Below are positions 1,196-46,754 of a stretch of DNA of 64,000 nucleotides, in pieces. A program made the translations under genes and the position numbers. The stretch is taken from contig OZ024743.1 of assembly GCA_964016885.1 (NCBI GenBank), forward strand, positions 86,304,001 to 86,368,000, in the 5' to 3' direction. This DNA is from Eledone cirrhosa (lineage: Eukaryota). Numbering within the stretch: the stretch's first letter is position 1; every line of letters begins with the position of its first letter. The notes under the pieces were generated by a model. That model worked only from the letters and a program-made list of their open reading frames with translations. It was not told the origin of the DNA and did no database searches.

Positions 1196-1550
1196 AGCTT
1201 ACACCACCCACAGAGACCTATCTTTCAGCTTAAGCTTCAAGAGGCAAATCCTCCCTATAAACGGGATCCAGTCTGTAACATTTTCTAACAGCGGGGGAGA
1301 GGAGGGGGGGGGGGGTAGTATCTCCACTCCCACCTGTGCAGTCATTTATGACCCCACACCTGAATAGTGGAGTTTCCATCCCCCATACAAATCTATAGTA
1401 TCAGAGCAATGGAACTTTGTTGAGGAAACCCCGACCATATCTAGCTGGTAGCATCTAGCCTCCTACACTAGTTCCAGCTCCTTGCCTGTAAGAGTTGTGA
1501 TGTACTAGGTTCCAACTGTCCAGTAGTATAATATACTAGTGGCAGTAGTG

Positions 1551-1609
<59 letters not shown>
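1551..1609. repeat. (TAA)n microsatellite at the 3' end of Tx1-like copy 1
   Basis: Directly visible. Confidence 0.97.
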
Positions 1610-1610
<1 letters not shown>

Positions 1611-4420
1611 TTTTCTTTATTAACCACAAGGGTTTACATAAAGTAGACATTAAGGACAGTACAGGATAATACAGGACGGTACAAATGGGCATTTCTGCGT
1701 GTAAAAAAACAGAGGATGAAATAAAATAACAAAGAAAAATTCCCCAATAGGGGGGAGACTTCCGAGGGACATTTGTGGAGAAAGCCCATTAAAAGGCCAC
1801 AGTGACCCTGACCACCAGGGCAAGTGCCCTCTCCCAGTTTTCCACCTTTAATTTACAGACACATACTCAGAGTAGGCCCATTCACTCGGGCCATTCTTGC
1901 CTCTCTCACCCATCTTTCAACAAAATGCTGGGAAGAGAGCACTTCCCTCTCTACCCTGATTTTCCTTTTCAAATGAAATTTAAAAAAGTCAATCAGAGCA
2001 TCATCAAAGAGGTAAGTGCTCGTCTTCAGCCCTTTCAAACGTGTCCATCATACTATCTCTTTCGCCATGGCCACCAGACAGATAAAAGCTGCCTGCCCTT
2101 CCCGGCTAAAGGAAGGGGGCGGGGCAATCCTCACGATGGACTCAGCTGATAGCTGGATCTGTCCTACACGCGACAGCAGGTGTAGACATAAACCCACAAG
2201 TCAGCAATGCTCGGACACTGGACGAGTGCGTGCAGGACGGCTTCGTCGCCCTGCGCGCATCTCGGACATGCACGGCTGACGGCACCTCCATGCCTGTAGA
2301 GTTTATCCCGAACTGGCAAAGCTCCTCGGTAGCACTGCCAGGCCAGGGATTTCTGGAAGTTGTCCATAGGCACCGGCCCGAAAGTTCTTCCGAAGAGATT
2401 GGCTAGTTGATTTTCGTCGACGCCTAGAGTTTCCCCAAGTACGTCGTCGCTCTTCCCCTCCACTAATCCTCTATAGAACGCCAAGGTGGAGTTTACACCG
2501 ATCAAATTGCCTGATTGGTCGAGGGCTGTGAGCGCCTGAAGACATTCCAGTCTCCAAGCGCTCCCTCTCGGTTTTCGCTTGACCCAGGACTGCAGCTCCG
2601 TCAAGGAGACGAGATGGGAAAATACGCGTCTAGCAAACGGCGACCACACCTGATCACCGTTGAGGAAGAGGTGGAGATGTCGTAGCCTGAGCGCGTGTCT
2701 GCACATCATCAGCCACGGCATGCCCAGCCCTCCACGTAGCGGGTGTTGACAGCAGATGGACTGCCTGACCATCGGAGCGCATCCCATCCACAAAAAGCGA
2801 AAGAGCAAACGCTCCAGCGCAGTCAGGCGGGGCTTAGGACAAGGTACGACGGTCAGGCGGTAGTAGATGACGGACGCAATATACGCGTTAGCCACCTCCG
2901 CTCGACCTTTCAGGGATAGCTTCCTCTCCGCCCATTTCTGGGTGAGAGAAGCCACCCTGCTCGTCACCTCGTCCCAGTTTTTGTCCGTCTGGAGGTCCGG
3001 ACCGAACCAGACCCCTAGCAATTTAACTGGTCCGTCCGTCCAGCGCCCGACGACGCTGTTGGACGGCATGGACCTGCCTCTCCAGGTGCCGAGCTGCAGG
3101 CCCACTGACTTTTCCTGGTTGATCATTGCTCCTGTCACCGCTTCGTATTCTCTTAGTATAGTGCCGATCGCCTCGATGTGTTTGGCGTTCGACACCACTA
3201 CGGTGACATCGTCCGCATATGCTGATACGGATCTTCCGCATCCTAGTTCGCGCGGGACCCCCCTCAACGTCTCCAGTTTGTGCAGTAATGGCTCGAGAGT
3301 CAATACGTACAAGGGGGACGAGAGGGGACATCCTTGGCGGACCGAGCGCATGATGTTGAACGGTTCCGAAAGGTGACCGTTCACTCACCACAGAGCAGAT
3401 GTCGCTGTGCATGGCAGCGATCCAGCCTCTGAAGACGGGCCCAAAGCCAGCCGCCCTCAGGACTACCGTTAGGTAACGATGGTCGACCCTATCGAAGGCT
3501 TTCGACTGATCTAAATTGATCAAAGACCCACCCATGCCAGGTTCCCTAGCTACCCTCTCTACGATGTATCGCATGAGGTGGAGGTTGTCGTGGATGGATC
3601 TGTCGGGAATGGCGCATGTCTGTGCCTCTCCCACCAGACCACCAACGACAAACGCCAACCTCTTTGCTAGCACCTTGGCCAAAATCTTGAACTCTGTGTT
3701 TAGCAGAGTTATGGGCCTACAATTATCTATGTTATCCCCCTTGTTCGGATCCTTTCTCAGCAGCGCCACCGCTCCTCGGCTCACAGAGCTGGGAATTCTC
3801 CCGTTCTGTTGCCAGTTGCAGTAGACGTCCGCCAAGGGGCCTCCGAAGAAGTCTGGCATTTGTACGTAAAGTTCATAGGGCAGACCATCCAAACCAGGCG
3901 GTTTACCCTTTATGCAGCCAGTCATTGACTCCCGTACTTCAGCGGCTGTTATCGGCTTTTCGCAACACTCCGCCTCAGTGGCCAAGAGTCGCGGCAGTCC
4001 GTCGAGGTAGACACCAAAGTTCCTCCCTCGATCCGGCCTGCCGCTGCCCTCGAACAGCTGAGCGAAGTGTCGCTGAAGAGCTTCACACATTTGCCCGGGA
4101 TCGAGTAGCATGCGCCCGTCGTGGTCCACCAAAGACCAAATCGTGTCTTTGTTGCCACGACGCGCCTCCGCCACTCGGGCCCATTAACGGCTTTCGTCCC
4201 CTCGTGTCTGAAAGCACGCACCCTAGCTCTGACAACGCAGCCTTCGTGCTTTGCATTGAAGAATTGGTCAAGAGCCAATTTCGCCGCAAGTACGTCGGTC
4301 GCGATGCCTTTGCTAAGCGCATCGTCTAATTTTCTAACTAGTTCTCCCTCTTCTCTATTTTTCTCTATTGCTAAAGCCTTATTAAACCTAATGGACTCTA
4401 TTCTAATCGCTCTTTTCAGA
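1610..4420 (-). mobile_element. L1/Tx1-like LINE copy 1, 5'-truncated; disrupted ORF2 (RT + C-terminal CCHC) and 3'UTR with AATAAA
   Basis: ORFs 2164-3384, 3023-4174 and 1853-2038 carry RPITLLNTEFKILAK, LDQSKAFDRVDH, VRQGCPLS, AYADD and CPRC..H..C. The end is AATAAAGAAAACA followed by (TTA)n. Near-identical to copies 3 and 4. Confidence 0.92.
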
Positions 4421-4428
4421 AATAATAA

Positions 4429-7147
4429 AAACAACAAACAAGAAAGATCAGAACCTTGGTGGAAGAAACGACTGAATGGTCAAATCAAGGAAATGAGAAA
4501 AGGCATTGGAAAGCTTGATTCCCTACTGAATGGGACATTACAAAACATAGACACTAAAAATAGATTGGAAATAAAGTGCAAAACTAGGGGGACAAAGCTA
4601 AATATCATAGAAGAACTGAAGCAACGCATTGTAGCAAAAAGTGCAAAGATTAGGCGGTATGAGAACAGCAGAGTCAGTCAGTATAGACAAAACCGCATGT
4701 TTGACAACAACCAGAAGGTGTTGTTTGGACAGCTTGAAGGGAAAGAAAGAGGCAACGACTTGATCCCTGAGGCGGAACAGACTAAGACATTCTGGAGAGG
4801 AATATGGGAGCAGGATGTTGAACATAATAGTCAGGCAGTGTGGATTGAGACAGTGCAAAAGGAGATTAGTGAACAAGCACACCAACAAACTGATTTGAGT
4901 ATCACAGTTGAAATTCTTAAAGGGCAGGCCAAAAAGCTAACCAACTGGAAATCATCAGGCCCAGATGGTGTGCAGGGGTATTGGATTAAAAATATAACAT
5001 CCCTCCACCCGAAACTGACAACCATGTTCAATGACTGCTTGATGTCGGGTGAGGTACCAGAGTGGTTGACAAAAGGTTCCACAGTTCTGGTAATGAAAGA
5101 CCGAATCAAGGGTAATGATGTTACCAACTATAGACCTATCACATGTCTGTCCGTAATGTGGAAACTGTTAACAAGCATTGGGTCTGAGGAAATCTACCAT
5201 CACCTCCACATAAACAACTTGTTACCGGACGAACAGAAAGGATGCCGAAAGAAGTACCGTGGTACAAAAGACAAGTTACTTATTGATAAGATGGTAATGA
5301 GGAATTGCAAGAGGAGACACACTGGTCTTGCTATGTGATGGATAGATTACATAAAGGCATTTGACATGGTGCCTCATTCTTGGATAACCAAAAGCCTAGA
5401 GATCTTCAAGGTTGCAGATAACATCAGACAGTTGTTGATCAAAAGTATGAAGTCCTGGAAAACAGAGTTAACATCGGGTGGAGAATCCTTGGGAGGCGTG
5501 AAGATCAAGAGAGGTATCTTCCAGGGAGATAGTTTGTCCCCTCTGTTGTTTGTCCTTGCCCTGATGCCCCTGACCGTTATATTGCGAAAAGTGAGAGCAG
5601 GATACAAGTTGGGAAAAGGAGAGTTACCATCAATCACCTCCTCTTCATGGACGATCTTAAACTCTTTGGGAAGAGTGAGAAGGGGTTGGATGTACTTGTT
5701 GACACTGTCCGTGTTTTCAGCAATGATATATGTATGGAATTTGGTATTAATAAGTGTGGAATCCTAGTGATGAAGAGGGGTAAATTGAGCAGAAACAACG
5801 GAATCCAACTACCAACAGGTGAGATGATAAAGGAAATTGACACCGAAGAGGGATACAAATATTTAGGTGTTCTGGAGGCAGATGACATCAAGAACGAAAA
5901 AGATGAAGGAATTGATAAGATCTGAGTACATAAGGAGAGTAAGGAGCGTATTAAAATCACATCTAAATAATAGGAATGTCATAAGTACAGTAAATTCCCG
6001 AGCTGTGTCTATTATTAGGTACAGTGCGGGAATTCTGAAATGGAATGTTGCTGAACAAAAAGAAATGGATAGGAAACTAGGAAGCTATTGACTATCTACA
6101 TGTTCCACAAGAGGAGTGATGTCGATAGACTCGTTAAAGAGATCTGAAGGTGGAATAGGTCTTATCAGCATAGAGGACTGTGTTCAGATGGAGAAAAACA
6201 ACTTGCACAAATACATGACTGACAGTAGGGAGCCAATGCTCAAAATTATACTGAATGAGAAAACAATAGACCAGGGGATGTCCAAGGAGGAAATAACAAG
6301 GAAGAAAAGCAACCTTCATGAAAAATCCATTCATAGTACCTTCTTTAAGAAAACTGAATTTAGAGATCCACAGACATGGAACTGGTTAAAAGGAGGAGAC
6401 CTTAAAAAGGCTACAGAAGGAATGCTAATGGCTACGCAAGAGCAGGCCCTCAAAACGAAGTGGGTGAAACACCATATTTACAAGGAGGAGGCTAGCCCAC
6501 TGTAGGATCTGTGGAGAGAGAGAGGAGACTGTGGATCACATTGTATCCGGATGTAAACACCTAGTCCAGACTCACTATAAAGGCTGGAGACATGATGTGA
6601 TAGGCAGGGTGATCCACTGGCACCGATGCAAAGTAAACAATTTACCACATTCTGAGAATTAGTATGAGCATAAGCCAGAGTCGGTGATAGAAAACGATCA
6701 GGTGAAGGTGCTGTGGGATTTTAGGATACAGACGGACAAGAAATTAGAACACAATAGGCCTGACCTGGTGGTTTTGGACAAGGAAAAATGATCGTGCCTG
6801 ATTGTAGATGTAGCCTGCCCATTTGACACGAAAGTGCAAGAAAAGGAGAGGGAGAAAATTAACCGATACCAGGATTTAAAGTGGGAGGTAAAAAGGATTT
6901 TGAACTGCCATGAAATCAAGGTCGTCCCGATTGTCATAGGCGCACTAGCTACTATCTCAAAGAGTTTCCAAGGATGGTTAAAGAAGATTAGTCCAGCCCC
7001 GCTTTTTGGAACACTTCACAAGGCATGCTTGCTGGGACCAGCAAGAACCCTCCGATACGTCCTGAATATCTGAGGCTGCGGGTAGCAGCTTGATATTCAT
7101 TTCAACAAACTTTCCAGTTAAATAACATCAATGACTGAGACTCAAAG
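4429..7147 (+). mobile_element. R4/Dong-like RLE non-LTR retrotransposon, 5'-truncated, pseudogenised
   Basis: RT motifs NWKSSGPDGVQGYW, NYRPITCL, IFQGDSLSPLLF and FMDDLKL. CCHC-like ICGEREETVDHIVSGC, then RHD and the RLE motif NRPDLVV..IVDVACP..EK. Ends VVPIVIGALA..RYVLNI* at 7073, with a short 3'UTR running into AATAATAAT. Confidence 0.9.
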
Positions 7148-7159
7148 AATAATAATAAT

Positions 7160-10100
7160 GGTTTCTTTATTGGCCACTATGGCTGACATTAAGAAAAACA
7201 TTACAGACGGCACAGGACGGTACGATGTGGGTTTTGTGCGTGTAAAGATTTTTATTATTTATATAAGAAAAGAAAAAGAAAAAAGACATAGAAACATATA
7301 TATATAAACAATAAAAATGAAAATTGAAACAATGAAAAATTCCCCAATAAGGGGGAAACCTCCGAGGGTTACTTGTGGCGAAAACCACACAAAAGACCAC
7401 GGCCACCCTGACTACCAGGGCAAGCGCCCTCTCTCAATTTTTTCCCATTCCTCAAACTACAAGCGTATATTCAGAGCGGTCCCGTTCACCCGGACCATTC
7501 TCGCTACATTCACCCACCTTTCAACAAACTTGCTAGTAGGCAGCACTTGCCTCTCCACCCTGATTTTCCTCTTCAAGTGAAACTTGAAAAAGTTAATCAG
7601 GGATTCGCCGAAGAGGAAAGTGTCTGTCTTTAACCCTTTCAACCTTGTCCACCACACAATCTCTTTCGCCATGGCCACCAGGCAGATGAAAACCACCTGC
7701 CCTTCCTCCTCGAAGGAAGACGGCGAGACTATCTGCACAATGGACTCAGTCGATAACCGGATCCGTCCTACACGCGACAGCTACTGTTCGACATAGCTCC
7801 ACAAGTCAGCAATGCTCGGGCACTGAACGAGTGCGTGCACGACGGTTTCGTCGCTCTGCGCGCATCTCGGACAGGCTCGGCTGACGGCACTTCCATGCCT
7901 GTAGAGCTTATCTCGAACCGGCAAAGCTCCCCGGTAGCACTTCCAGGCCAGGGATTTCTGAAAGTTCTCCGGAAGAGAGCAAACAGCTGATCGTGCAGGC
8001 AGACATCGCGCCCTGTATTTCACCTGCTGTTAACGGCTTTTCGCAGCACTGCGCTGCGGTCGTCGAGAGCCTCAGCAGTCCGTCAAGGTATGCACCGAAG
8101 TCCATACACCGATCCGGCCCGCCGCCGGTCCCGAACAATTGAGCAAAGTGCTGCCGAAAAGCTTCACACATCTGCTTCGGTTCGAGCAACATGTGCCCGT
8201 TTTGATCACGCAAAGGCCGAATTGTGGCTTTGTTGCCACGTCGCGCCTCCACCACCCGGGCGTGTCTTAGACCACGTGCTCTAACTCTGACAACGTAGCC
8301 TTCATGCTTTGCGTTGAAGAATTGGCCGAGTGCCAATCTCGCCGCAAGCACGTGGGTTTCGATGCCTGTCCTAAACGCCTCTTCTAGCTTTCTAACTAAC
8401 TCTCCCTCTACTCTATTTTCCTCTATCACTACTCCTTTGCTAAACCTAATCGACTCTACTTTAATTGCCCTTTTCAGGACGAACCACTACCTGTGGTTGA
8501 CGACCGCTCCCGTCAACGCCCGCTTAACTAATACGCTAATCTGGTCTCTGTAGGCTTTGCGCGCCGGGAAAGACGCGTTCAGCTTCCAGTAACCGGGCCC
8601 TTGTCTATGAAGTCTGTCTATGTCGATCTCACAGATCACAAATTTGTGGTCTATGTAGTCGACTATTTTAAATTGTGGACAACTTATACTAGCCTTATCT
8701 AGTTCTCTGCAGAATACCCTATCGATATACTATCTGGATGACCCGATGCGGTTTGTCCATGTCCACATTGGCACATTCGGGTGATCCAGTCGATACCTGT
8801 CAGACAGTTCAAAACGTCTGAGCAGGTTGGTGAGGATCTTGCACTCTCCTCCCCTATCCACTAGCCCCACACAATCCCAGCGTGCATCCAATATACCGTT
8901 CCAGTCGCCCACTAACACTAATGAGAGGGACGTTCCAAGAAAGGTCTCTAGACGTCTGAAGAAATCTGGCCGTCCTGCCTCTGTTGGGGCGTAGACGGCT
9001 ACTAGCCTGAAAGCATTGCCTTCGCTGCCGGTCACGTCCAGCACCACCGTTTACCTTCTGAGTCTAGGAAGATGGCCCGTATGGCGAGATCCAAGCCTCT
9101 CCGAAAAAGGACGGCAACCCTCCCCCGATCCTGGACGGCTGGGAGATGCGTATACATCGTAGCCGTCGAAGATCGGTGCGAAGGCTTGTGCTTCGGAGAT
9201 TCTGGTCTTACTGATGGCCACCACATCTATGTTTAGTGACCTGAGGTCGTTGAGCAGGTGACCCTGCTTCCAAGATGACCCCAGACCACATGCATTTATA
9301 CTGCCTATTCTGAGTACGGCCATGTTGGATGAGAAACGGGGCAAGTGAGAAAGGGTCACTTACCTTGATCGTGTGGTGAAGGGACAGTAGAACCGTCCCT
9401 TTCTCTGGTCATGGGTGTTTCCAAGAGGATGTCAGTGTATATCCTCTTGGTAACCGACCCTCTGAAGTCTCCAACTGCGTTGGGGAGTTTTTGTTTTAAA
9501 GGTTTGTACTGTTCTATTGAGATTTCAATGATGCTTATGTTTGTCGGGAGAGTTCTTGGTGTTGGTGGGGTGTAGTAGTTTTTTACTGTGATGTCTGTGT
9601 GCTGCTTTATATATTGTATGAGTTCTTTTTTTGCCATGTTTATGGCTGTGTACATTTTGGGGGGAGGGGTGATTTTGTTGCTGTTTTCTTCTTGTTGCTG
9701 TTTGGTGTGTGCGTTTTGTTTTGTTTGCGTTGTTGGTGTTTTTGGTGATGCTGGTGGTGGTGCGGTTGTTGTTGTCAGTTGTGCTTGTGGTGGTGATGGT
9801 GATGGTGGTGGTGTTGCTGCAAGTTTCCTTGCTGCCTTTACCCCTCTTTGTGTGCCTTCGCTTTTGGAGGGTGAATCTAAGGGGTTTTTGTTTTTGTTTT
9901 TTGTGGCAGACCGTTTGCCACTTCACTCCCGCCTCAAACTCCATGTCGGATTCTGTGGCGTCTGGGAGGGGTATGTGCTCCACGGCTGCTGGTGGTGGTA
10001 GTGGAGCCCTCTTCGGCAATTTTGTTGCTGGTGTAGCTACTTCAAATGTAGCTATTGCTGTTCCCGCCACTGATGCTGCTGCTTTAGTTGTCCGTGGCCT

Positions 10101-11645
10101 TGGTACGGGTGCCACGGACGTTGCCCTCCTACTCACCGTAGAAGGGACTTCTGCGTTTGTTGCCTGCCCTGCTCTTGGTAGCAGCGGCCAGGTATTGGAA
10201 GGAGAGGGCCCTTCTTCGCTGTCTTCTGCGGACAAAAGGCCCTGAGGTGACCCTTCGACCCACAGAGATAACATTTTGGCCGTCTTCCTTCTACGCTTAG
10301 AGGGAGTTGGAGTCCTTCCTCGATGTCTATGATATCGGGGATAGCGTCGATACATTCCTGGTCAGTTTGTATAAGCATTTGCATGCCTATACCTGACCAG
10401 TTCTCTCTCCCTATTTTCTCTACTTGCAGCATGGTCGTCCTGTCCTCGATTCCAGCAAGGACAGACGCGGCTAGCCAAGGTATGGGCACGTTGAGTGGGA
10501 CCTGGGTCACTTTGACCTTCAGTAGGAGAGCACCAAGACTACCTCCTCACTCTTTAGGGTTTCCAAAGAGTGAGACTTTGATTCCGGGGGGGTGGCGAAA
10601 ATTATGTCTACTGTGGCGTACTTTCTGCCTCGGGTGATGTGGGTTTTGCGTGCCCAGACGCACCCCAAGGCCTTTTGGATTTGAACCTCCGTGGCTCTCT
10701 CCACTCGATGTGAGATTTTGCTTACGGTGCGGTAAGTCACCGTCAGTAGCTGCTGGTCCTTGAAAAAATCGGGTGGAGGTTTCAGGGAGACACTATTGGC
10801 GCTTCTTGTCACCATGGCCCTTGCGACTGCCATCTCCTCCTCTGTGACTAACACTGTCTCGATATTTCGGGCGACACCTGCAAAAGAAGTGGTCCCCTTT
10901 TCAGCAGCACCACTACTGCTGCCGCTACTGGTCTTACTGGTGGTGCTGAGATCGCTGTTACAGGTATCGATGTCATTGTTGATGTTTTCGTTGGTACAAT
11001 TGTTGGTGTTGTTGGTGTTGTTTTCGTTGATACTGTTGCTGTTGTTACTGTTATTGTGGCTGTTGTTATTATTGTTGTTTTTGTTGATTCTGTTCCTACT
11101 ATTATTGTTGTTGTGGCTGTTGTTATTGTCATTGTTATTGTCGTTCTCGACCTTACCGCTGTTATTTTTGTTATTGTCATTCTCGACTTTACCGCTGTTA
11201 TTTCTGTTGTTGCTGTTGTTATTGATGGTGTTGTTGTTGGTGTTGTTGTTGGTGTTATTGTTGGTGTTGTTTGTGTTAGAAATATTTGGTAATTTTAAAT
11301 CTGTAACAATCTTCTTTTCCTTTGTAATATTTTCGTTTATATTTACCTCCGCTGGAACGCTGTCTTGTTGACATGCTGATAAAGTCTCCCTCTCTCTGTG
11401 TTGTCTGACAGCGCTCTCTCTGTTTCTTGTGTTATCCATGTTGAAATTTTTTTCAAAAAATATTTTTACACAAATACGACATCCCGTAAAGGGGTGCCGT
11501 ATTATTTACGAGTAAACCCCTGTATTAGGTGGGTCACTTCTAAACTTTTATCAAATTTAAAACTTGAATAAAAGATTTAGAACGGTTGAAAACGAGATAA
11601 AACGTTGAAAAAAAAACTGGAGGCGATAAGAAGCGTGGCTTCACC
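7160..11645 (-). mobile_element. L1/Tx1-like LINE copy 2 (divergent subfamily); 5'UTR + ORF1 + ORF2 with most of RT deleted
   Basis: ORF2 pieces at 7457-9323 (APE: SINACGL, AVYAPT, GDWN; CCHC end), with RT missing at a junction near 7970-8010. ORF1 pieces at 9356-11439 with knuckle CYLCGSKGHLRAFC. Both ends abut TAA/CAA repeats. Confidence 0.9.
9356..11439 (-). pseudogene. ORF1 of Tx1-like copy 2 (Asn-rich N-terminus, conserved core, single CCHC knuckle, Pro/Thr/basic tail), frameshifted
   Basis: ORFs 10519-11439, 10133-10510, 9525-10355 and 9356-9655 join into one protein homologous to ORF 15223-16731. Confidence 0.85.
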
Positions 11646-11660
11646 AACAACAACAGCAAC

Positions 11661-11702
<42 letters not shown>
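11646..11702. repeat. (CAA)/(TAA)n tract between copies 2 and 3
   Basis: Directly visible. Confidence 0.95.
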
Positions 11703-11703
<1 letters not shown>

Positions 11704-11944
11704 TTTTCTTTATTAACCACAAGGGTTCACATAAAGTAGACATTAAGGACAGTACAGGACAATACAGGACGGTACAAATGGGCATTTCTGCGTGTAAAAA
11801 AACAGAGATTGAAATAAAATAACAAAGAAAAATTCCCCAATAGGGGGAGACTTCCAAGGGACATTTGTGGAGAAAGCCCATTAAAAGACCACAGTGGCCC
11901 TGACCACCAGGGCAAGTGCCCTCTCCCAATTTTCCACCTTTAAT

Positions 11945-14900
11945 TTACAGACACATACTCAGGGAAGGCCCATTCATTCGGGCCATACTTGCTTCTCTCA
12001 CCCATCTTTCAACAAAATGCTGGGAAGAGAGCACTTCCCTCTCTACCCTGATTTTCCTTTTCAAATGAAATTTGAAAAAGTTAATCAGGGCATCACCGAA
12101 GAGGTAAGTGCTCGTCTTCAGCCCTTTCAAACGTGTCCACCATACTATCTCTTTCGCCATGGCCACCAGACAGATAAAAACTGCCTGCCCTTCCAGGCTA
12201 AAGGAAGGGGGCGGGGCAATCCTCACGATGGACTCAGCTGATAGCTGGATAGGTCCTACACGTGACAGCAGGTGTTCGACATAAACCCACAAGTCAGCAA
12301 TGCTCGGACACTGGACGAGTGCGTGCAGGACGGTTTCGTCGCCCTGTGCGCATCTCGGACATGCTCGACTGACGGCACCTCCATGCCTGTAGAGTTTATC
12401 CCGAACTGGCAAAGCTCCTCGGTAGCACTGCCAGGCCAGGGATTTCTGGAAGTTGTCCATAGGCCCCGGCCCGAAAGTCCTTCCGAAGAGATTGGCTAGT
12501 TGATTTTCGTCGACGCCTAGAGTTTCTCCAAGTACGTCGTCGCTCTTCCCCTCCACTAATCCCCTATAGAACGCCAAGGTGGAGTTTCCACCGATCACAT
12601 TGCCCGATTGGTCGAGGGCTGTGAGCGCCTGAAGACATTCCAGTCTCCAAGCGCTCCCTCTCGGTCTTCGCTTGACCCAGGACTGCAGCTCCGTCAAGGA
12701 GACGAGCTGGGGAAAAACGTGTCTTGCAAACGGCGACCACACCTGATCACCGTCGAGGAAGAGGTGGAGATGTCGTAGCCTGAGCGCGTGTCTGCGCATC
12801 ATCAGCCACGGCATGCCCAGCCCTCCACGTAGCGGGTGTTGACAGCAGATGGACCGCCTGACCATCGGAGCGCGTCCCTTCCACAAGAAGCGAAAGAGCA
12901 AACGCTCCAGCGCAGTCAGGCGGGGCTTAGGACAAGGTACGACGGTCAGGCGGTAGTAGATGACGGATGCGATGAACGCATTCGCCACCTCCGCTCGACC
13001 TTTCAGGGATAGCTTCCTCTCGGCCCATTTCTGGGTGAGAGAAGCCACCCTGCTCGTCACCTCGTCCCAGTTTTTGTCCGTCTGGAGGTCTGGACCGAAC
13101 CAGACCCCTAGCAATTTAACCGGTCCGTCCGTCCAGCGCCCGACGACGCTGTTGGACGGCATGGACCTGCCTCTCCAGGTGCCGAGCTGCAGGCCCACTG
13201 ACTTTTCCTGGTTGATCATTGCTCCTGTCACCGCTTCGTATTCTCTTAGTGTAGTGCCGATCGCCTCGATGTGTTTGGCGTTCCGAAAGGTGACCGTTCA
13301 CTCTCACTACAGAGCAGATGTCGCTGTGCATGGCAGCGATCCAGCCTCTGAAGACGGGCCCAAAGCCAGCCGCCCTCAGGACTGCCGCTAGGTAACGATG
13401 GTCGACCCTATCGAAGGCTTTCGACTGATCTAAATTGATCAAAGACCCACCCGTGCCAGGTTCCCTAGCTACCCTCTCTACGATGTATCGCATGAGGTGG
13501 AGGTTGTCGTGGATGGATCTGTCGGGAATGGCGCATGTCTGTGCCTCTCCCACCAGACCACCAACGACAAGCGCCAACCTCTTTGCTAGCACCTTGGCCA
13601 AAATCTTGAACTCTGTGTTTAGCAGAGTTATGGGCCTAAAATTATCTATGTTATCCCCCTTGTTCGGATCCTTTCTCAGCAGCGCCACCGCTCCTCGGCT
13701 CACAGAGCTGGGAATTCTCCCGTTCTGTTGCCAGTTGCAGTAGACGTCCGCCAAGAGGCCTCCGAACAAGTTTGGCATTTGTACGTAAAGTTCATAGGGC
13801 AGACCATCCAAACCAGGCGATTTACCCCTTGTGCAACTAGTCATTGCATCCCGTACTTCAGCGGTTGTTATCGGCTTTTCGCAACACTCCGCCTCAGTGG
13901 CCGAAAGCCGCGGCAGTCCGTCGAGGTAGACACTAAAGTCCATCCCTCGATCCGGCCCGCCACTGCCCCCGAACAGTTGAGCGAAGTGTCGCTGAAAAGC
14001 TTCACACATTTGCCCGGGATCGAGTAGCATGCGCCCGTCGTGGTCCACCAAAGACCGGATCGTGGCTTTGTTGTCACGACGCGCCTCCGCCACTCGGGCC
14101 CATTGAACGGCTTTCGTCCCCTCGTGTCTGAGAGCACGCACCCTAGCTCTGACAACGCAGCCTTCGTGCTTTGCATTGAAGAATTGGTCAAGGGCCAATT
14201 TCGCCGCAAGCACGTCGGTCGCGATGCCTTTGCTAAGCGCGTCATCTAATTTTCTAACTAATTCTCCCTCTGCTCTATTTTTCTCTATTGCTAAAGTCTT
14301 ACTAAACCTAATGGACTCTATTCTAATTGCTCTTTTCAGAGCAAACCACCACTTGTTGTTGACGATGGCCCCCGTCAACGCCCGCTTAACTAGTTCGCTA
14401 ATCCGGTCTCTGTAGGCCTTGCGCGCTGGTAAGGACGCGTTTAGCTTCCAGTAGCCGGGTCCTCGTCTATGAAGCCTATCTAAGTCAAGCACACAGATCA
14501 CGAATTTGTGGTCCGTGTAGCTGACTATCTTGAATTGTGGACAGCCTATGCTAGACCTATCTATTTCCCTACAAAATACTCTATCTAGATATGATCTGGA
14601 TGACCCTATGCGATTTGTCCAAGTCCACATTGGTACATTCGGGAAATCCATTCGGTACCTGTCAGACAGTTCAAAACGTCTGAGCAGGTTGGTGAGACTC
14701 TTGCACCCTCCTTCCCTATCCACTAATCCCACACAATCCCAGCGTGCATCTAAGATCCCGTTCCAGTCGCCCACTAACACTAAAGAGCGGGACGTTCCAA
14801 GAAAGGTCTCCAGACGCCAGAAGAAATCAGGCCGCCCTGCTCCTGTCGGGGCATAGACGGCCACTAACCTGAAAGCTTGCCCGTCTCCGCTGGTCACGTC

Positions 14901-15188
14901 CAGCACCACCAACTTACCTTCTGGGTCCAGGAAGATGGCCCGTATGGCAAGATCCAAACCTCTCCGAAAAAACACAGCAACTCCTCCCCCCGATCCCGGA
15001 CGGCTGGGAGATGCGTACACATCGTAGCCGCCGAAGATCGGTGCGAAAGCCTGTGCTTCGGAGATTCTGGTCTCGCTGATGGCTACTACATCTATGTTTA
15101 GTGACCTGAGGTCGTTGAGCAGGTGGCCCTGCTTCCATGACAACCCCAAGCCACGCGCATTTATGCTGCCTATTCTGAGTGAGGTCAT
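11945..15188 (-). pseudogene. ORF2 (APE-RT-CCHC) of copy 3; a ~175 bp deletion near 13283 removes QGCPLS and YADD and shifts frame
   Basis: ORFs 13116-15188 and 11945-13231. Alignment to copy 1 shows the equivalent of ~3191-3366 is missing. Confidence 0.9.
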
Positions 15189-15222
15189 GTTGAAAAGGAG
15201 TGGAAAAGATGGGAAAGACCAC

Positions 15223-17224
15223 TTACCTTACTTCTCGTAGGGGAAGGACGGCTTTTCCATCCTTTTCACTGCTTGTGGCCTCCTCAGGAAGGATGTCCTT
15301 ATAAATCCTCCTGGAGAGTGCTTGTCGGAAGTCTCCGATGTCTTTGGGGAATTTTTGTTTTAGTGTCATGTACGTTTTCTGTGTGATGCGAGTGATTTGT
15401 ATGTGTGGAGGTGGTGTGAATTTTGGGGTTGTTGTGTAGTCTTTTTCTGTGATGCTGGTGTTGTGTTGGATGTAGTGTAATAATTGCTTGTTGTTCAAAT
15501 TTAATGCTGTGTAGTGTGTATCGTTTTGGTTGTTTTGTTTTGTTTGCGTTTGTTGTGGGTTTGTTTCTGTTTCGCATTTTGGTGACTTTTGTGGTGTAGG
15601 TGATGGTGGTGTTGGAGTTAATGATGGTGATGGTGTTGGTGTTTGGGTTGATGGGGTTGGTGATGCTGGTGTGGATGGTGGCATATCTGTCCTAACTTTT
15701 TTGTTTCTTAGTTTATTTGTTTCCCTCTGTATTTTGTTTTTGGAGGGGGAAGGAAGAGAATTTTTTCTTTTTTGGTTTCTTTTTTTTTTTCCGGATATCG
15801 TTTCCCACTCCTCGTCGTCACAATCTGTCTCCAGTTGTGATAGGCCGGGGAGTGGAAAATCCTCCACAGCCGTTAGTTTTGGTTGTGGTGTGGTGGATGG
15901 TGTAGGCGCTGGTGCTAGTTCTGAAGCGTTGGGTAGTGGTGGTGTTGGTTTTGCTGGTGGTGGTAGTGGTGTTGGTTTTGCTACTGTTGCTGGGGTTGTT
16001 GCTGTTATAGTTGCTTCTGTTGTTGCTGCTACAGTTGTTGCTGCCATCTCTGCTACTGGTGGTGTTGATGGTTGTGTCACTGGGGTGGGTAGGAGAGGTG
16101 GCCTCAACCTTTTAGCCTGAGGGCAGAAAGCCCTTAGGTGGGTTCCTTCACCACAAACGACACACCTAGGTCTTCTGCCCTCGACAATTACCGTGAGGTG
16201 GCTGCCGTCAGTGAGGTCTATTACCTCTGGGATCTCCTCAATGCTTTTTTGGTCCGCTTGGATCAGGAGCTCCATCCCAGATCCGGACCAGTTTTCCTGC
16301 TTTTCTTTTGCTACTGCTATTATTTTCGTGTTGGCTTCGATGCCGGCGAGGACAGCCGCTATTAGCCAGGGAATTTCGATGGCCGGTGGAATGTGGGTCA
16401 CCCTGATCTTTACGAGTCTCTGGCCACAATAGCTTGGGACGAGTGTGAGGTCGTCACTTTTTAATGGGGCCATGGAGTGTTCTCTAGCCTCCTCTGGTGT
16501 TTCAAAGAACACATCCACGGTTCCATACTTTTGCCCACGTCTGATGTGGGTTTTTCTTGCCCACACATGTCCCAAAGCTTTTTGGATTTGGGACTCGGAT
16601 GCCCGTTCCACTCGGCGCGATTTTACATTTATTGTTCTATACGACACGGTGCACAGGCGCCGATGCTCCTTTTTATTAGGTGGGGGGGGGGGGGGGGTGA
16701 GGCTGACCCTGTACCCATCTTTCTTTACCATTTGTTTGGCATTTTCTAAATCCTCCTGAGTTACCGTAAATGCTTCGAACTGTTTTGCTACTCTGGCAAA
16801 ACTCAGGGTGGTTTTTTTAATGTCATTGTTGTTGTTGTTGCTATCGTTATTTTTGCTATTATTTAATTTTAGTTTCAGTTGTGGTGACGTCAGTGGTGTT
16901 TTGTGTGGAAGTGGAAGAGTCCATTTTGGTTGAAATTATTTCGACATCACGAGTTGATTTATTTTTTCCTTTTGTTTCTGTTGTCGCGGTGGTGGTGGGG
17001 GTGGTGGTTGTCGCGGTGGTGGTGGTGGTGGAGGCTTTAACACCTGCAGTCATTGGTAATGGCGGGAAATGAATGTCTGCCTGAGACAAATTTAAAATAT
17101 TGCTACTGCTTATATTTTTTTTAGTGTTGGCAAACGTAGTAACATTTACAATGGTGGTGTCGGTGTGAGGTGTTAATTTGTGAGGAAGGCTTTCAGCTGC
17201 TTGGTGCAGAGGTGAATTAGCCAT
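15223..17224 (-). pseudogene. ORF1 of copy 3 (gag-like, CCHC knuckle CVVCGEGTHLRAFC), one frame break near 16860
   Basis: ORFs 16859-17224 and 15223-16731. Confidence 0.85.
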
Positions 17225-17434
17225 TTTTTTTTCAAAGAAATTTTTTGATAATCATAAAAGTTTAAATTTTGGGCACAAGGCCCCAATCTTTTTGGGTGTC
17301 CTTTTCGGAAAACAATGTATGTGCGCTTATATGTAGTTAACAATAAAAATTTTCCATAAATGGCAATTTTTAACAAACGGAAATAACAAACCTTTGCGGA
17401 GCTCACGATGATACGATTTACTACGTAGGTCGCC

Positions 17435-17494
<60 letters not shown>
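17435..17494. repeat. (TAA)n tract
   Basis: Directly visible. Confidence 0.97.
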
Positions 17495-17621
17495 TGTTTC
17501 TACTTTTGGCACAAGGCCAGCAATTACCCAATGCATTACTGGTACTTCATTCGATCGACCCCGGAAGGATGAAAGGCAAAGTTAACCTCGGCGGGATTTG
17601 AACTCAGATCATACAGGGAGG
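17495..17621 (-). mobile_element. 5'-truncated tRNA-derived SINE (Nin-like central domain) within the TAA array
   Basis: B-box GAGTTCAAATCC followed by GCCGAGGTTAACTTTGCCTTTCATCCTT..GGGGTCGAT. Homologous to 32857, 41492, 42037 and 63487. Confidence 0.85.
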
Positions 17622-17643
17622 TAATAATAATAATAATAATAAT

Positions 17644-20600
17644 GATTTCTTTATTAATCACAAGGGTTTACATAAAGTAGACATTACGGACAGTGCAGGA
17701 CTATACAGGACGGTACAAATGGGCATTTCTGCGTGTAAAAAACAAAAACAGAGGATGTAACAAAAAAAATAACAATGAAAAATTCCCCAATAGGGGGGAG
17801 ACTTCGGAGGGACATTTGTGGAGAAAGCCCATTAAAAGGCCACAGTGACCTTGACCACCGAGGCAAGTGCCCTCTCCAGTTTTCCACCTTTAATTTACAG
17901 ACACATACTCAGAGTAGGCCCATTCACTCGGGCCATTCTTGCTTCTCTCACCCATCTTTCAACAAAATGCTGGGAAGAGAGCACTTCCCTCTCTACTCTG
18001 ATTTTCCTTTTCAAATGAAATTTGAAAAAGTCAATCAGGGCATCACCGAAGTGGTAAGTGCTCGTCTTCAGCCCTTTCAAACGTGTCCACCATACTATCT
18101 CTTTCACGATGGTCACCAGACAGATAAAAACTGCCTGCCCTTCCCGGCGAAAGGAAGAGGGCGGGGCAATCCTCCCGATGGACTCAGCTGGAAGTTGTCC
18201 ATAGGCCCCGGACCGAAAGTTCTTCCGAAGAGATTGGATAGTTGATTTTCGTCGACGCCTAGAGTTTCCCCAAGTACGTCGTCGCTCTTCCCCTCCACTA
18301 ATCCTCTATAGAACGCCGAGGTGGAGTTTCCACCGATCACATTGCCAGATTGGTCGAGGGCTGTGAGCGCCTGAAGACATTCCAGTCTCCAAGCGCTCCC
18401 TCTCGGTCTTCGCTTGACCCAGGACTGCAGCTCCGTCAAGGAGACGAGCTGGGGAAAAACGTGTCCAGCAAACGGCGACCACACCTGATCACCGTCGAGG
18501 AAGAGGTGGAGATGTCGTAGCCTGAGCGCGTGTCTGCGCATCATCAGCCACGGCATGCCCAGCCCTCCACGTAGCGGGTGTTGACAGCAGATGGACCGCC
18601 TGGCCATCGGAGCGCGTCCCTTCCACAAAAAGCGAAAGAGCAAACGCTCCAGCACAGTCAGGCGGGGCTTAGGACAAGGTACGACGGTCAGGCGGTAGCA
18701 GATGACAGACGCGATGTACGCGTTAGCCACCTCCGCTCGACCTTTCAGGGATAGCTTCCTCTCGGCCCATTTCTGGGTGAGAGAAGCCACCCTGCTCGTC
18801 ACCTCGTCCCAGTTTTTGTCCGTCTGGAGGTCTGGACCGAACCAGACCCCTAGCAATTTAACCGGTCCGTCCGTCCAGCGTCCGACGACGCTGTTGGACG
18901 GCATGGACCTGCCTCTCCAGGTGCCGAGCTGCAGGCCCACTGACTTTTCCTGGTTGATCATTGCTCCTGTCACCGCTTCGTATTCTCTTAGTGTAGTGCC
19001 GATCGCCTCGGTGTGTTTGGCGTTCGACACCACTACGGTGACATCGTCCGCATATGCTGACACGGATCTTTCGCATCCTAGTTCATGCGGGACCCCACTC
19101 AACGTCTCCAGTTTGTGCAGTAATGGCTCGAGAGTCAATACGTACAAGAGGGACGAGAGGGGACATCCTTGGCGGACCGAGCGCATGATGTTGAACGGTT
19201 CCGAAAGGTGACCGTTCACTCTCACCACAGAGCAGATGTCGCTGTGCATGGCAGCGATCCAGCCTCTGAAGACGGGCCCAAAGTCAGCCGCCCCCAGGAC
19301 TGCCGTTAGGTAACGATGGTCGACCCTATCGAAAGCTTTCGACTGATCTAAATTGATCAAGGACCCACCCGTGCCAGGTTCCCTAGCTACCCTCTCTACG
19401 ATGTATCGCATGAGGTGGAGGTTGTCGTGGATGGATATTTCGGGAATGGCGCATGTCTGCGCCTCTCCCACCAGACCACCAACGACAAGCGCCAACCTCT
19501 TTGCTAGCACCTTGGCCAAAATCTTGAACTCTGTGTTTAGCAGAGTTATGGGCCTACAATTATCTATGTTATCCCCCTTGTTCGGATCCTTTCTCAGCAG
19601 CGCCACCGCTCCTCGGCTCACAGAGCTGGGAATTCTCCCGTTCTGTTGCCAGTTGCAGTAGACGTCCGCCAAGAGGCCTCCGAAGAAGTCTGGCATCTGT
19701 ACGTAAAGTTCATAGGGCAGACCATCCAAACCAGGCGATTTACCCCTTGTGCAGCTAGTCATTGACTCCCGTACTTCAGCGGCTGTTTTCGGCTTTTCGC
19801 AACACTCCGCCTCAGTGGCCGTGGGCCGCGGCAGTCCGTCGAGGTAGACACTAAAGTCCATCCCTCGACCCGGCCCACCGCTGCCCCCGAACAGCTGAGC
19901 GAAGTGTCGCTGAAAAGCTTCACACATTTGCCCGGGATCGAGTAGCATGCGCCCGTCGTGGTCCACCAAAGACCGGATCGTGGCTTTGTTGCCACGACGT
20001 GCCTCCGCCACTCGGGCCCATTGAACGGCTTTCGTCCCCTCGTGTCTAAGAGCACACACCCTAGCTCTGACAACGCAGCCTTCGTGCTTTGCATTGAAGA
20101 ATTGGTCAAGGGCCAATTTCGCCGCAAATACGTCGGTCGCGATGCCTTTGCTAAGCGCCTCGTCTAATTTTCTAACTAGTTCTCCCACTGCTCTATTTTT
20201 CTCTATTGCTAAAGCCTTACTAAACCTAATGGATTCTATTCTAATCGCTCTTTTCAGAGCAAACCACCACTTGTTGTTGATGATGGCTCCCGTCAACGCC
20301 CGCTTAACTAGTTCGCTAATCCGGTCTCTGTAGGCCTTGCGCGCTGGTAAGGACGCGTTTATCTTCCAGTAGCCGGGTCCTCGTCTATGAAGCCTATCTA
20401 AGTCAAGCACACAGATCACGATTTGTGGTCCGTGTAGCTGACTATCTTGAATTGTGGACAGCCTATGCTAGACCTATCTATTTCCCTACAAAATACTCTA
20501 TCTAGATATGATCTGGATGACCCTATGCGATTTGTCCAAGTCAACATTGGCACATTCGCACATTCGTTGAGCAGGTGACCCTGCTTCCACGACGACCCCA

Positions 20601-23038
20601 AGCTACGCGCATTTATGCTGCCTATTCTGAGTGAGGTCATGTTTAAAATGGAGTGGAAAAGATGGGAGAGACCACTTACCGTACTTTTCGTAGAGGAAGG
20701 ATGGTTTCTCCATCCCTTTTCACTTGATCGTCTGGTGAAGGGACCGTTGAATCGTCCCTTCGGCTGGTCGTCGGCTCTTCTATGAGTATGTCCGAATATA
20801 CTCTCCGGTTGAGAGTCCCTCCTAGGTCTCTGAAATCACCAACTGCGTTGGGGAATTTCGTTTTAATGTTTGTGTATTGTTTCTGTGCTATTTTTACCAG
20901 TCTTATGTTTGTTGGCGTTTTGATTGGTGCTGGTATTATGTAGTCGTGCTGTGAAATGTCTGTGTGTTCAATTATGTAAGTCATTAGTTTCTTGTTGTGT
21001 GTATTTATTGCCGTGCATTTGTTTTTCTGGGGGTGGGGTGTGGTTCTGCTATTTTCTTGTCGTTGTTGCTGGGTGTGTGTGTTTTGTTGTTGTGTTTGCG
21101 ATGTTGGTGCTTGTGGTGGTGGTGTTGAAGGTGTTGTTGTTGTTGGCGGTGAGGTTGTCGCCGGTGGTGATGGTGGTGCTAGTGTGGGAGGTGATGATGT
21201 TGGTGGTGTTGCTGCTGTGAGTCTCTTTGCAGTAGCCTTTACCCTTTTTTCATTTCTTTCCTCCCTTTTCGAAGGCGACGATGCGCTGCTTCTGCGTTTG
21301 TGCCTTCTTACGACCTTTTGCTATCCCTCTCCCACCTCACACTCCATTTCTGATTCTGTGAGGTCGGGGAGGGGTACCAGCTCCACTCTTTCACTTGTTG
21401 TTGTTGGTGATGTTTGGAGTGGAGTTTCTGTTGCAGCTGCATCTGGTATTACTGTTGTTGTTGTTAATACTTCCACTGCTACTGCTGTTTTTGATTTCCG
21501 TGGCGTGGGTATGGGTGCCACGGACCTATCGTTCCTGGTTGCCGCTTGTTCTGTTGCTGGTAGCCGTGGAGCCGGTTTCGGAAGGAGGGGGGTTTTCTCC
21601 TTTCTCAGGGTCTTCTCGTTGCAGAAGGCCCTGAGGTGAGTCTTCGATCCACAGCGAAAGCATTTCGGGCGTTTGCCCTCAACACTTATGGGCAGTTGAG
21701 TGCCGTTATCGAAGTCTATCAAATCCAGGATAGCTTCGATGCACTCCTGGTTGGTTTGGATTAACATCTCAATGGAGATGCCGACCCAATCTTCTCGTAC
21801 TTTTTTCTGTACTTGCAGTACAGTTGTTTTGTCCTCGATTCCGACGAGGACAGACGCGGCCAGCCAAGAAGGGGCCATCCCGGGGGGGGGGGGTCAATTT
21901 GACCCTCACAATTTTTTGCCCGCAGTAGGAGGGCACCAACACCATTTCCTCGCTCCTTAGGGTCACTAAGGATTGAGCCTTTGCCTCCTGGGGTGTGGCA
22001 AAAAGCACGTCTACGGTGGCATATTTCTTGCCTCGGGTGATATGCGTTTTCCGCTGCTACATAGACCCTAATGCTTTTTGTATTTGAGCCTTTGTGGCCC
22101 TTTCAACCCTACGGGATTTTGTGCTTACTGTACGGTACGTGACCGTACAGTGCTGTTGGGTTTCGAAAAATTTTTCGGCTGCCTTGCAGATTGCTCGGTG
22201 TCCGGTTTTCGTCACCATCTTCTTCGCTTCCTGTAATTCCTCATTTGTTATAAGGATGGTTTCCAGGTTCTTTGCGATACCTGCAAACGAGATTGGTTTT
22301 TCTTTGCTGCTGTTGTTGTTGTTGTTGTTGTTGTCGTCAGAGCTGCTGTTACTTTTGTTGTTGCTGCAGGTACTACGACTACTGCCGCCGCCGCTGTTGC
22401 TGTGGTTGTTGTTGTTGTTGCTGCTGCTGCTGTTGTTGTTGCTGTTGCTGCTAATGCTGTTGTTGTTTATGCTGCTGCTGATGCTGTTGCGGCTGCTACT
22501 GTTGTTTTCCTTGTCACTGTTGCTGCTGCTGCTGCTGTTATTACGGCTGCTACTGCTATTATTCCTGACGTCAGACGAATGAAATGGGTTTTCGTATTTC
22601 CCGCACATCTTTTTCGTCGTTGTACTCGTCGTCGTGGAGAAATCTTGCACGCTTTGCACGTGATTTTTCTTTTCTGGCGTCGCTTGCGAAAGAGAAGGGA
22701 GGGAGAGAGACACATTTAGAGAAGGGAGGGAGAGAGACGATCTTCTCTCTGCTGTAGTGACGATTGAGGAAGAAGAAGACGGAATGAGTGGGAGTGACCT
22801 ATGAAAATTCTTTTTCGTAGCCATGTTTTTTTTTGTTTAAAATAAATATTGGGCACAAAACCCCAATAAGCGGTTATTTAACCCCGAAGGGCCAAATAAC
22901 GGGCAGAAAGACCCCTCTCACGAGGAGGAGGGTGTTTTTGTCTACAATTTGGTTAAAGTTTTAAACAATTTACAATTGTTATAGCGGTCAAAATTTACAA
23001 TACCTTACAGAGCCGAGCCTCCGTCAACCATAGCATTC
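17644..23038 (-). mobile_element. L1/Tx1-like LINE copy 4; RT intact, deletions in APE (~20562) and CCHC (~18190); ORF1 20676-22824 disrupted
   Basis: ORF 18113-20419 with AYADD; ORF2 start MTSLRIGSINAR at 20640; ORF1 knuckle CFRCGSKTHLRAFC; TAA tracts at 17622-17643 and 23039-23083. Confidence 0.92.

Positions 23039-23083
<45 letters not shown>
23039..23083. repeat. (TAA)n tract
   Basis: Directly visible. Confidence 0.97.
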
Positions 23084-23084
<1 letters not shown>

Positions 23085-23979
23085 TGACTGGCAGTAGGGA
23101 GCCAATGCTCAAAATTGTACTGAAGGAGAAGACAATAGACCAGGGGATGTCCAAGGACGAAATAACAACAAAGAGGAAGGGCAACCTTCATGAAAAATCC
23201 CTTCATAGCACCTTTTTTAAGAAAACGGAATTCAGAGATCTGCAGACATAAAGCTGGTTAAAAAGAAGCGACCTTTAAAAAACTACAGCCGGAATGCTAA
23301 TGGCTGCACAAGAGCAAACACTCAAAATGAAGTGGGTGAAATATCATATTGACAAGGAGGAGTCTATCTCCTTGTGTAGGATCTGTGGAGAGACAGAGGA
23401 GGCTGTGGCGCACATCGTATCCGAGTGTAAACACCTAGCCCAGACACACTATAAAGGCTGATATTTATGCAAACTAAACAATTTACCACATTCTGAGAAG
23501 TGGTATGAGCATAAGCCAGAGTCGGTGATAGAAAACGACCAAGTGAAGGTGCTATTGGATTTCAGGATACAGACGGACAAGAAATTAGAACACAACAGGC
23601 CTGACCTGGTGGTTTTGGACAAGGAAAAAAGATCGTGCTTGATTGTTGATGTAGCCTACCCCTTAGACACAAGAGTGGAAGAAAAGGAGAAGGAGAAAAT
23701 TGACCGATAAAGTGGGGGTTAAAAAGGATTTGGGACTGTTGTGAGATCAAGGTCGTCCCGATTGTCATAGGAGCACTAGGTACTATCTCAAGGAGTTTTC
23801 AAGGATGGTTAAAGAACATTAGTCCAGCCCCCTTTTTTTGGAACAATTCAAAAGGCATGCTTGCTGGCAACAGCAGGAACCCTCCGATACGTCCTGAATA
23901 TCTGAGGCTGTAGGTAGCGGTTTGGTATTCATTTGAACAAACTTTCCAGTTAAATAACATCAATGACTGAGACTCAAAG
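23084..23979 (+). mobile_element. Second R4/Dong-like copy, 3' ~0.9 kb only
   Basis: Homologous to 6218-7147, same 3' terminus GACTGAGACTCAAAG, followed by TAA/CAA repeats to ~24050. Confidence 0.9.
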
Positions 23980-24239
23980 AATAATAATGATAACAACAAC
24001 AACAATAATAATAATAATAATAATAATAACAATAATAAAAATAATAATATAGTATAATGACCAGTGTGTAGAATTAGTCTAGAATTAATGTTGACATATA
24101 TGAACGAAATACAAGTAAAGTAAAAATGAGGTTGGGGATAGCTGATCATTAAGTAAACAAGGAATATGTCACATCCTAAGCGTAAAATAAATGGTACAAA
24201 TGTATAAACAAAGAGTTGTTGTCCATCAACGGATCTCAC

Positions 24240-24818: not shown

Positions 24819-24831
24819 ATACATACATACA

Positions 24832-25264: not shown

Positions 25265-25293
25265 ATATACATACATACATACATACATACATA

Positions 25294-28265: not shown

Positions 28266-28276
28266 ACATGCATACA

Positions 28277-46683: not shown

Positions 46684-46751
<68 letters not shown>

Positions 46752-46754
<3 letters not shown>

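What the first reader, a model, noticed from the sequence alone, without database searches (positions are those of the whole stretch)
1551..24050. Array of L1/Tx1-like LINEs apparently specific for (TAA)n microsatellites
Seen: four copies, all minus strand and head-to-tail. Each has TAA repeats at its 3' end, and the three with intact 5' ends have TAA/CAA repeats there too; copy 1 keeps AATAATAA at its truncation point. Known: the Tx1 clade includes target-specific families (Kibi on TC, Koshi on TTC, Keno on U2, Mutsu on 5S). I do not recall a TAA-specific mollusc family. Inference: a microsatellite-specific APE family that repeatedly reinserts into one expanding tract.
Basis: partly seen in the sequence, partly recalled or inferred. 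Interest (0 to 1): 0.7.

Follow-up and report, generated by a model that had tools for sequence, protein, structure and literature searches.

The report
LINE family targeting TAA microsatellites
A young family of jumping genes, probably from an octopus-like animal, sits almost always inside TAA repeats and always faces the same way; it likely seeks these repeats out, and it shares them with an unrelated repeat-seeking element that faces the other way, a new target for a known habit.

Summary
Confirmed, with corrections. Four minus-strand L1/Tx1-type LINEs lie at 1610-23038, but the array also holds two opposite-facing Dong/R4-like fragments and a short element; all eight junctions are (TAA)n. 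Genome-wide, 84 of 87 other 5' ends follow four or more ATT units and 123 of 124 3' ends run into ATT with no poly(A). So do 21 of 34 5'-truncated copies (2+ units; background about 1.5%), so the flanks are not just a self-made tail. One off-target copy shows a 10-11 nt target duplication plus an added (ATT)3, so the tail is also element-borne. A sister family (endonuclease 58% identical) sits in (TATC)n, 0 of 60 ends in ATT. Best reading: ORF2-directed nicking of the (AAT)n strand with priming on an AUU tail (inferred, not assayed). Microsatellite-targeting Tx1 (Kibi, Koshi) and TAA-targeting Dong are known. A TAA-targeting APE family was not found in ten paper searches; Repbase could not be checked. 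Tx1-clade membership is likely but unproven. This scan noted the same family earlier on other DNA of this genome.

The parts
1551..1609 (+). (TAA)19 tract, left end of the array
1610..4420 (-). LINE copy 1, 5'-truncated (last 2.8 kb of ORF2 and 3'UTR), 96% to intact copies
4421..4428 (+). residual AATAATAA at the copy-1 truncation, neither LINE nor Dong sequence
4429..7147 (+). 5'-truncated, broken Dong/R4-like LINE (RT, zinc knuckle, restriction-like endonuclease motif seen in a genome copy), opposite orientation
7148..7159 (+). (AAT)4 shared by the Dong 3' end and the copy-2 3' end
7160..11645 (-). LINE copy 2, older subfamily (73-82%), about 1.5-kb internal deletion, third 5' module
11646..11702 (+). 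CAA-type units (copy-2 leader) then (AAT)14
11703..17434 (-). LINE copy 3: ORF1 (CCHC knuckle) about 15223-16935 and upstream, ORF2 from 15188 with intact APE domain, 172-bp deletion in RT
17435..17494 (+). (AAT)20 tract
17495..17621 (+). short, very abundant element flanked by TAA on both sides, facing as Dong does
17622..17643 (+). (TAA)7 tract
17644..23038 (-). LINE copy 4, ORF2 as copy 3 but different 5'UTR/ORF1; 470- and 205-bp deletions
23039..23083 (+). (AAT)15 tract
23084..23980 (+). second 5'-truncated Dong/R4-like fragment (85% to the first)
23981..24049 (+). degenerate TAA/CAA tract, right end of the array

Best explanation
This is a young, high-copy L1/Tx1-type LINE family that lies inside (TAA)n microsatellites in one fixed orientation, likely because its ORF2 endonuclease nicks the (AAT)n strand and the freed end would anneal to AUU repeats at the end of the element's RNA to prime copying. 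Shown: ATT on both sides of full-length copies, at most truncation points, no poly(A), a precise ATT|G 5' junction, a 10-11 nt target duplication plus an added (ATT)3 at one off-target site, and the same target for three different 5'UTR/ORF1 modules. Inferred: the nick at or next to a TA step; the RNA tail arises by read-through past the AATAAA into the tract; each insertion splits one tract into two and adds tail units, which seeds the next insertion. Dong-like elements use the other strand of the same tracts, so mixed stacks such as this 22-kb array build up.
For: 5' ends: 30/30, 30/30 and 27/30 loci follow four or more ATT-type units (each set includes one window copy, so 84 of 87 others). 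3' ends: of 126 non-window copies, 124 had a locatable end; 123 run into ATT, 118 into 2+ units, 111 into 3+, none into poly(A). 32 of 32 full-length copies picked by the 3' end have a 5' tract. Truncated copies: 21 of 34 (binomial p about 4e-30 at a 1.5% background). Split pre-existing compound tracts: L319/L136 (GAT/GGT repeats on both sides), L325 (CTT both sides), L326 (ATTATT+GTT both sides). 24 of 87 5' tracts are directly preceded by another LINE 3' end, often of another subfamily. A sister family (ORF2 67%, EN 58%, RT 75% aa) sits in TATC: 23/30 3' ends and 26/30 5' ends have 3+ units, 0/60 have ATT. APE catalytic motifs align with L1 endonuclease structures. ORF2 is open for 1146+ codons in 12 of 39 copies. 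Endonuclease-determined specificity is reported for TRAS1/SART1, Tx1L and R1Bm (PMC1919474 passages; PMC7265360 introduction).
Against: 13 of 34 truncation boundaries, and 4 of 6, have no ATT; some abut a Dong piece or a beheaded short element (possible target deletion), others are unexplained. L341 is a clear insertion at a non-ATT site. Three 3' ends carry only 1-2 ATT before CTT, GTT or AGT repeats. Searches returned the best-scoring 40 of 200-1900 candidates, so the samples lean to young copies. The truncation calls were classified by eye. No cleavage or priming was assayed, and because tail and target are the same sequence the nick position cannot be read from on-target sites.
Confidence: 0.8

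Rival explanations
1. Target choice comes mainly from the RNA: a loose TA-nicking endonuclease cuts widely, and only nicks that can anneal to the AUU tail (and an AUU leader at the 5' end) are completed.
For: The tail is element-borne (L341). No poly(A) in 124 ends. 5' junctions are exact to the base. The (GTT)n leader of the c2 type is inherited between copies. The TATC sister has the matching tail and leader, sometimes a single unit beside (TA)n.
Against: L341 primed at a site with only about 2 nt of match to the tail. The sisters' endonucleases differ more (58%) than their RTs (75%), including two residues of the beta-hairpin region. Published swaps place specificity in the endonuclease (PMC7265360 introduction).
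Confidence: 0.13
2. No targeting: the element carries ATT at both ends, inserts anywhere, and only Dong and the short element home to the tracts it creates.
For: The tail is self-added at least once (L341). About 40% of truncation boundaries lack ATT. Dong is a known TAA-seeker (PMC3812793, PMC7998251 passages).
Against: Truncated copies cannot carry a 5' leader, yet 21 of 34 have ATT there. Compound tracts continue across insertions. 24 of 87 copies sit right behind another LINE's tail with no Dong between.
Confidence: 0.04
3. Passive accumulation: random insertion with retention in microsatellite-rich, low-recombination DNA, or tandem duplication or misassembly.
For: The genome is very rich in simple repeats; a few tandem near-identical copies exist (L087-L089).
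Against: Young copies (96-99% alike) show in-register, one-strand junctions. Sisters sort onto different repeats (0/60 cross-over). Neighbours in the window differ by 4-25% and in ORF1, so they are not duplicates.
Confidence: 0.03

Closest known systems
Kibi (TC)n and Koshi (TTC)n of teleosts; crocodilian Tx1-1_Crp group on (TTCC)n/(TTTC)n (PMC4494074 section 15 and passages; PMC3812793 passages)
   Same: Two-ORF APE-RT LINEs inserted in a microsatellite; the nearest labelled relatives of this RT are YTX2/TX1-labelled vertebrate proteins (35-40% identity).
   Different: The target is (TAA)n, and a sister uses (TATC)n. The host is an invertebrate. The RT falls in a separate branch (with Argonauta and unnamed ENA/JGI proteins, SH-aLRT 100), outside the labelled vertebrate branch (99).
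Dong (Bombyx Dong, DongAg, snail DongBg, ostracod Dong), R4 clade (PMC3812793, PMC7998251, PMC3774820 passages)
   Same: The same (TAA)n target; Dong-like copies sit in the same tracts here.
   Different: Dong has one ORF and a restriction-like endonuclease and reads TAA on its sense strand; this family has an APE endonuclease and reads ATT. So a TAA-specific mollusc LINE is already known, but not of the APE type.
TRAS and SART of Bombyx (R1 clade) in (TTAGG)n (PMC7265360 abstract and introduction)
   Same: Two families insert in opposite orientations into one repeat and stack.
   Different: TRAS and SART are both R1-clade APE elements at telomeres, and SART ends in poly(A). Here two unrelated endonuclease classes share an interspersed microsatellite, and there is no poly(A).
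L1-Tx1 repeats of octopus annotations (PMC13282606: 13 recently active families, 421 insertions in O. vulgaris; PMC8967140)
   Same: The same class label, with recent activity.
   Different: No target preference is reported in the passages read.

Membership tests
L1 group (APE-type non-LTR) | ORF1 plus ORF2 with N-terminal APE, RT and C-terminal zinc finger | tested here: met
   Pfam Exo_endo_phos, RVT_1, zf-RVT; best solved relative is human L1 ORF2p, E 1e-53
Tx1 clade | RT groups with reference Tx1 families (Tx1L, Keno, Kibi, Koshi, Mutsu) | tested here: inconclusive
   Quick IQ-TREE tree of 50 rows: own well-supported branch, outside the branch of automatically labelled YTX2/TX1 proteins; deep forks open; no Repbase or vertebrate-L1 references; the careful search did not finish
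Tx1 clade | ORF1 with a CCHC zinc knuckle (feature recalled, not from a call) | tested here: met
   CX2CX4HX4C in both ORF1 types and in the sister
Tx1 clade, target-specific families | One sequence type in more than 20% of flanks (criterion of PMC4494074) | tested here: met
   84/87 5' ends, 123/124 3' ends, 21/34 truncation points
Tx1 clade, target-specific families | Endonuclease cleaves the target in vitro | not testable with these tools
   needs a cleavage assay
Kibi/Koshi lineage | Inserts in (TC)n/(TTC)n and groups with teleost families | tested here: not met
   Target is ATT (one copy in a CTT tract with ATT at both junctions); not in the fish branch
Dong/R4 (plus-strand neighbours) | Single ORF with RT, CCHC knuckle and C-terminal restriction-like endonuclease motif | tested here: met
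   P0003 shows RT, CX2C...H...C and a PD...D-type motif read by eye
Dong/R4 (plus-strand neighbours) | Inserted in (TAA)n | tested here: met
   3' ends at TAA tracts in the window and loci; many truncated 5' ends also at TAA (not tallied)
Dong/R4 (plus-strand neighbours) | RT groups with reference R4/Dong sequences | not tested
   no references at hand

The most novel reading that the evidence does not exclude
A cephalopod LINE lineage has radiated across microsatellites (ATT, TATC) by carrying a copy of its target on both ends of its RNA, so the target is set largely by RNA-DNA pairing and can be changed by swapping a few terminal repeats; together with Dong on the other strand it turns each TAA tract into a self-seeding landing pad.
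Probability: 0.15. Interest if true: 0.8.

Novelty: new variant of a known kind. Interest (0 to 1): 0.47.

Why it matters
It adds a target (TAA) and a phylum to APE-type site-specific LINEs and shows two unrelated endonuclease classes converging on opposite strands of one microsatellite. How APE endonucleases read a target is described as unclear in the papers read (PMC3812793, PMC1919474). Two young sister families in one genome, with intact ORFs, 58% identical endonucleases and non-overlapping targets, give a ready swap experiment. It also explains multi-kilobase retrotransposon stacks in this genome and warns that TAA microsatellite markers here often sit at mobile-element junctions.

Tried and rejected
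Empty-allele test: contigs and reads of 4 public runs laid on one single-insertion locus showed no joint skipping the element among the rows printed; the output was dominated by other copies and cut short, so it is uninformative. Relatives in JGI metagenome contigs (34 loci) were only 21-51% identical in RT and none of the 10 whose ends I printed lay in TAA; two ended in U2-snRNA-like sequence (recognised from recall); the flanks of the closest unnamed ENA/JGI branch were not obtained. Rfam found no ribozyme or other RNA family in 1-25000 (one chance hit, E 0.71). A search of the genome with an outside endonuclease returned only this family among the 30 loci checked. The idea that the short element is the 5' end of Dong was dropped: TAA separates them in 5 of 5 loci checked. 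Target duplications could not be read at pure tracts. No structure prediction was run. A look-up by sequence in earlier scan notes gave nothing.

Full report
Anatomy. Self-comparison and translation confirm four minus-strand LINE copies at 1610-4420, 7160-11645, 11703-17434 and 17644-23038. They are not alone. Plus-strand fragments of an unrelated RT element lie at 4429-7147 and 23084-23980, and a 127-bp short element lies at 17495-17621. A longer genome copy of the plus-strand element shows RT, a zinc knuckle and a restriction-like endonuclease motif, the build of Dong/R4. The seven elements are joined by eight junctions, all (TAA)n on the + strand. The eight bases at the copy-1 truncation match neither neighbour. 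Copies 2-4 have internal deletions. Copies 3 and 4 share ORF2 (about 96%) but have different 5'UTR/ORF1; copy 2 is an older subfamily with a third 5' module.

Host. The genome is 3.0 Gb. The best named RT match is Argonauta hians at 73%, and R4-Dong is reported almost only in cephalopods among molluscs (PMC10294476 passages). An octopod host is inferred.

Genome-wide flanks. Each search scored its best 40 candidates and returned 30 loci, so samples lean to young copies. First-look candidates were 1943 for one 3' end and 1610, 1711 and 623 for the three 5' ends; these are not copy numbers. 5' ends follow four or more ATT-type units in 30/30, 30/30 and 27/30 loci, or 84 of 87 without the window's own copies; the other three have short or interrupted runs. 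The junction is exact: ATT then G. For 3' ends, 126 non-window copies were examined; 2 were dropped because the end motif was not found; 123 of 124 run into ATT, 118 into two or more units, 111 into three or more, none into poly(A), and one into the AAT phase. Of 39 copies picked by the 3' end and extended upstream, 32 are full length and all 32 have a 5' tract; 12 have ORF2 open for at least 1146 codons. Background is 0.12-0.14% of positions for three units and 1.4-1.5% for two.

Target or self-made ends? Truncated copies cannot carry a 5' leader. Among 90 loci had a 5' boundary within 1.5 kb. I dropped 3 internal deletions, 1 inversion and 5 nested insertions shown by longer fetches. Of the remaining 34, 21 have two or more ATT units at the boundary and 13 do not (classified by eye; binomial p about 4e-30). 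In the first set 2 of 6 truncated copies have ATT, 3 abut a Dong piece head to head and 1 has other sequence (a seventh, head to head with another copy, was left out). Compound tracts continue across insertions: GAT/GGT repeats on both sides of L136, CTT on both sides of L325, ATTATT+GTT on both sides of the truncated L326, a duplication of up to 18 nt. Of 87 5' tracts, 24 are directly preceded by another LINE 3' end, 12 by Dong pieces, 9 by the short element and 42 by other DNA. So the family lands in existing tracts. It also brings ATT with it: L341 sits inside the short element at a site without a tract, with a 10-11 nt duplication and about three added ATT units.

Control. L340 holds an intact sister element (ORF2 67% aa; endonuclease 58%, RT 75%) flanked by (TATC)n. 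In its own searches, 23/30 3' ends and 26/30 5' ends have three or more TATC-type units and 0/60 have ATT. The preference is therefore family-specific, not a general pull to simple repeats. Three different ORF1 modules share the ATT target, which points to ORF2 or the 3' end as the determinant (inference). I looked for such a sister after earlier scan notes mentioned one.

Mechanism. Shown: fixed orientation, in-register junctions, no poly(A), element-borne tail, short duplication. From established work: target-primed reverse transcription, with specificity placed in the APE domain and its beta-hairpin for TRAS1, SART1, R1Bm and Tx1L (PMC1919474 passages; PMC7265360 abstract and introduction). 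The catalytic motifs and the hairpin position align with L1 endonuclease structures. Inferred: a nick on the (AAT)n strand at or beside a TA step (one site, L341); priming on AUU repeats read through past the AATAAA; 5' joining helped by an AUU leader; each event leaves two tracts, so stacks grow. Dong reads TAA on its sense strand and so would cut the other strand. That the array began as a single tract fits all eight junctions but was not shown: the empty-site test was uninformative.

Classification. The element is L1-group. A quick RT tree of 50 rows (one short row dropped; careful search unfinished) puts it with Argonauta and unnamed ENA/JGI proteins (SH-aLRT 100), apart from vertebrate proteins labelled YTX2/TX1 (99; 35-40% identity).

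Literature. Ten searches found no TAA/ATT-targeting Tx1 or L1 family. PMC3812793 (passages) lists TAA only for Dong, including a snail copy; PMC7998251 (passages) gives (TAA)n as the Dong target in most insects, molluscs and cnidarians and names its endonuclease as REL. PMC4494074 (passages and section 15) gives TC, TTC, TTCC and TTTC for Tx1; its figure and supplements could not be seen and may list more targets. PMC13282606 (passages and part 2 of 3), PMC8967140, PMC9115989, PMC4640811, PMC3774820, PMC3747384, PMC1635306 and PMC5786205 (passages only) report no such target. Kojima and Fujiwara 2004 and Repbase were not seen; a Repbase entry may exist.

Verdict. It is a new variant of a known kind: a new target and host group for a known habit, with a useful natural contrast. 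Earlier notes of this scan describe the same family on other DNA of this genome; they are not counted as support.

Noticed in passing
L340 (G000:C14:15201869-15207567, minus): Intact sister LINE (ORF1 530 aa, ORF2 1167 aa frame) flanked by (TATC)n; 657-1332 first-look candidates genome-wide
   Followed up: yes
window 11703-17434 versus 17644-23038: The same ORF2 under different 5'UTR/ORF1 modules (ORF1 core 53% aa); both types have intact young copies, so 5' modules have been swapped near the ORF1 end
   Followed up: partly
window 17495-17621; also near 32918, 41563, 42036, 63484: Very abundant 127-bp short element that sits in TAA tracts facing as Dong does; its mobiliser was not determined
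   Followed up: partly
window 1-1550 (minus): Broken APE-type LINE fragment of another clade (RTE-like by eye) ending at the left TAA tract
   Followed up: no
window 55484-58451 (+): 767-aa RT frame with Penelope-like look (weak RVT_1 hit, possible GIY-YIG at the C-terminus by eye), preceded by an Asn-rich AAC/AAT repeat frame
   Followed up: no
L345 (G000:C3:99219200-99228200): Internal Dong piece lacking its 3' end lies inside a full-length LINE copy with about 85 bp of the host duplicated; similar tract-less head-to-head Dong junctions in L127, L144, L157
   Followed up: partly
L285, L287 (JGI metagenome contigs): Tx1-like elements ending in A-rich tails followed by U2-snRNA-like sequence (Keno-like, recognised from recall); L290 ends in (AT)n
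   Followed up: no
window 24817-25293, 28265-29395, 46739-47157: A repeated 450-bp element flanked by (ACAT)n tracts
   Followed up: no
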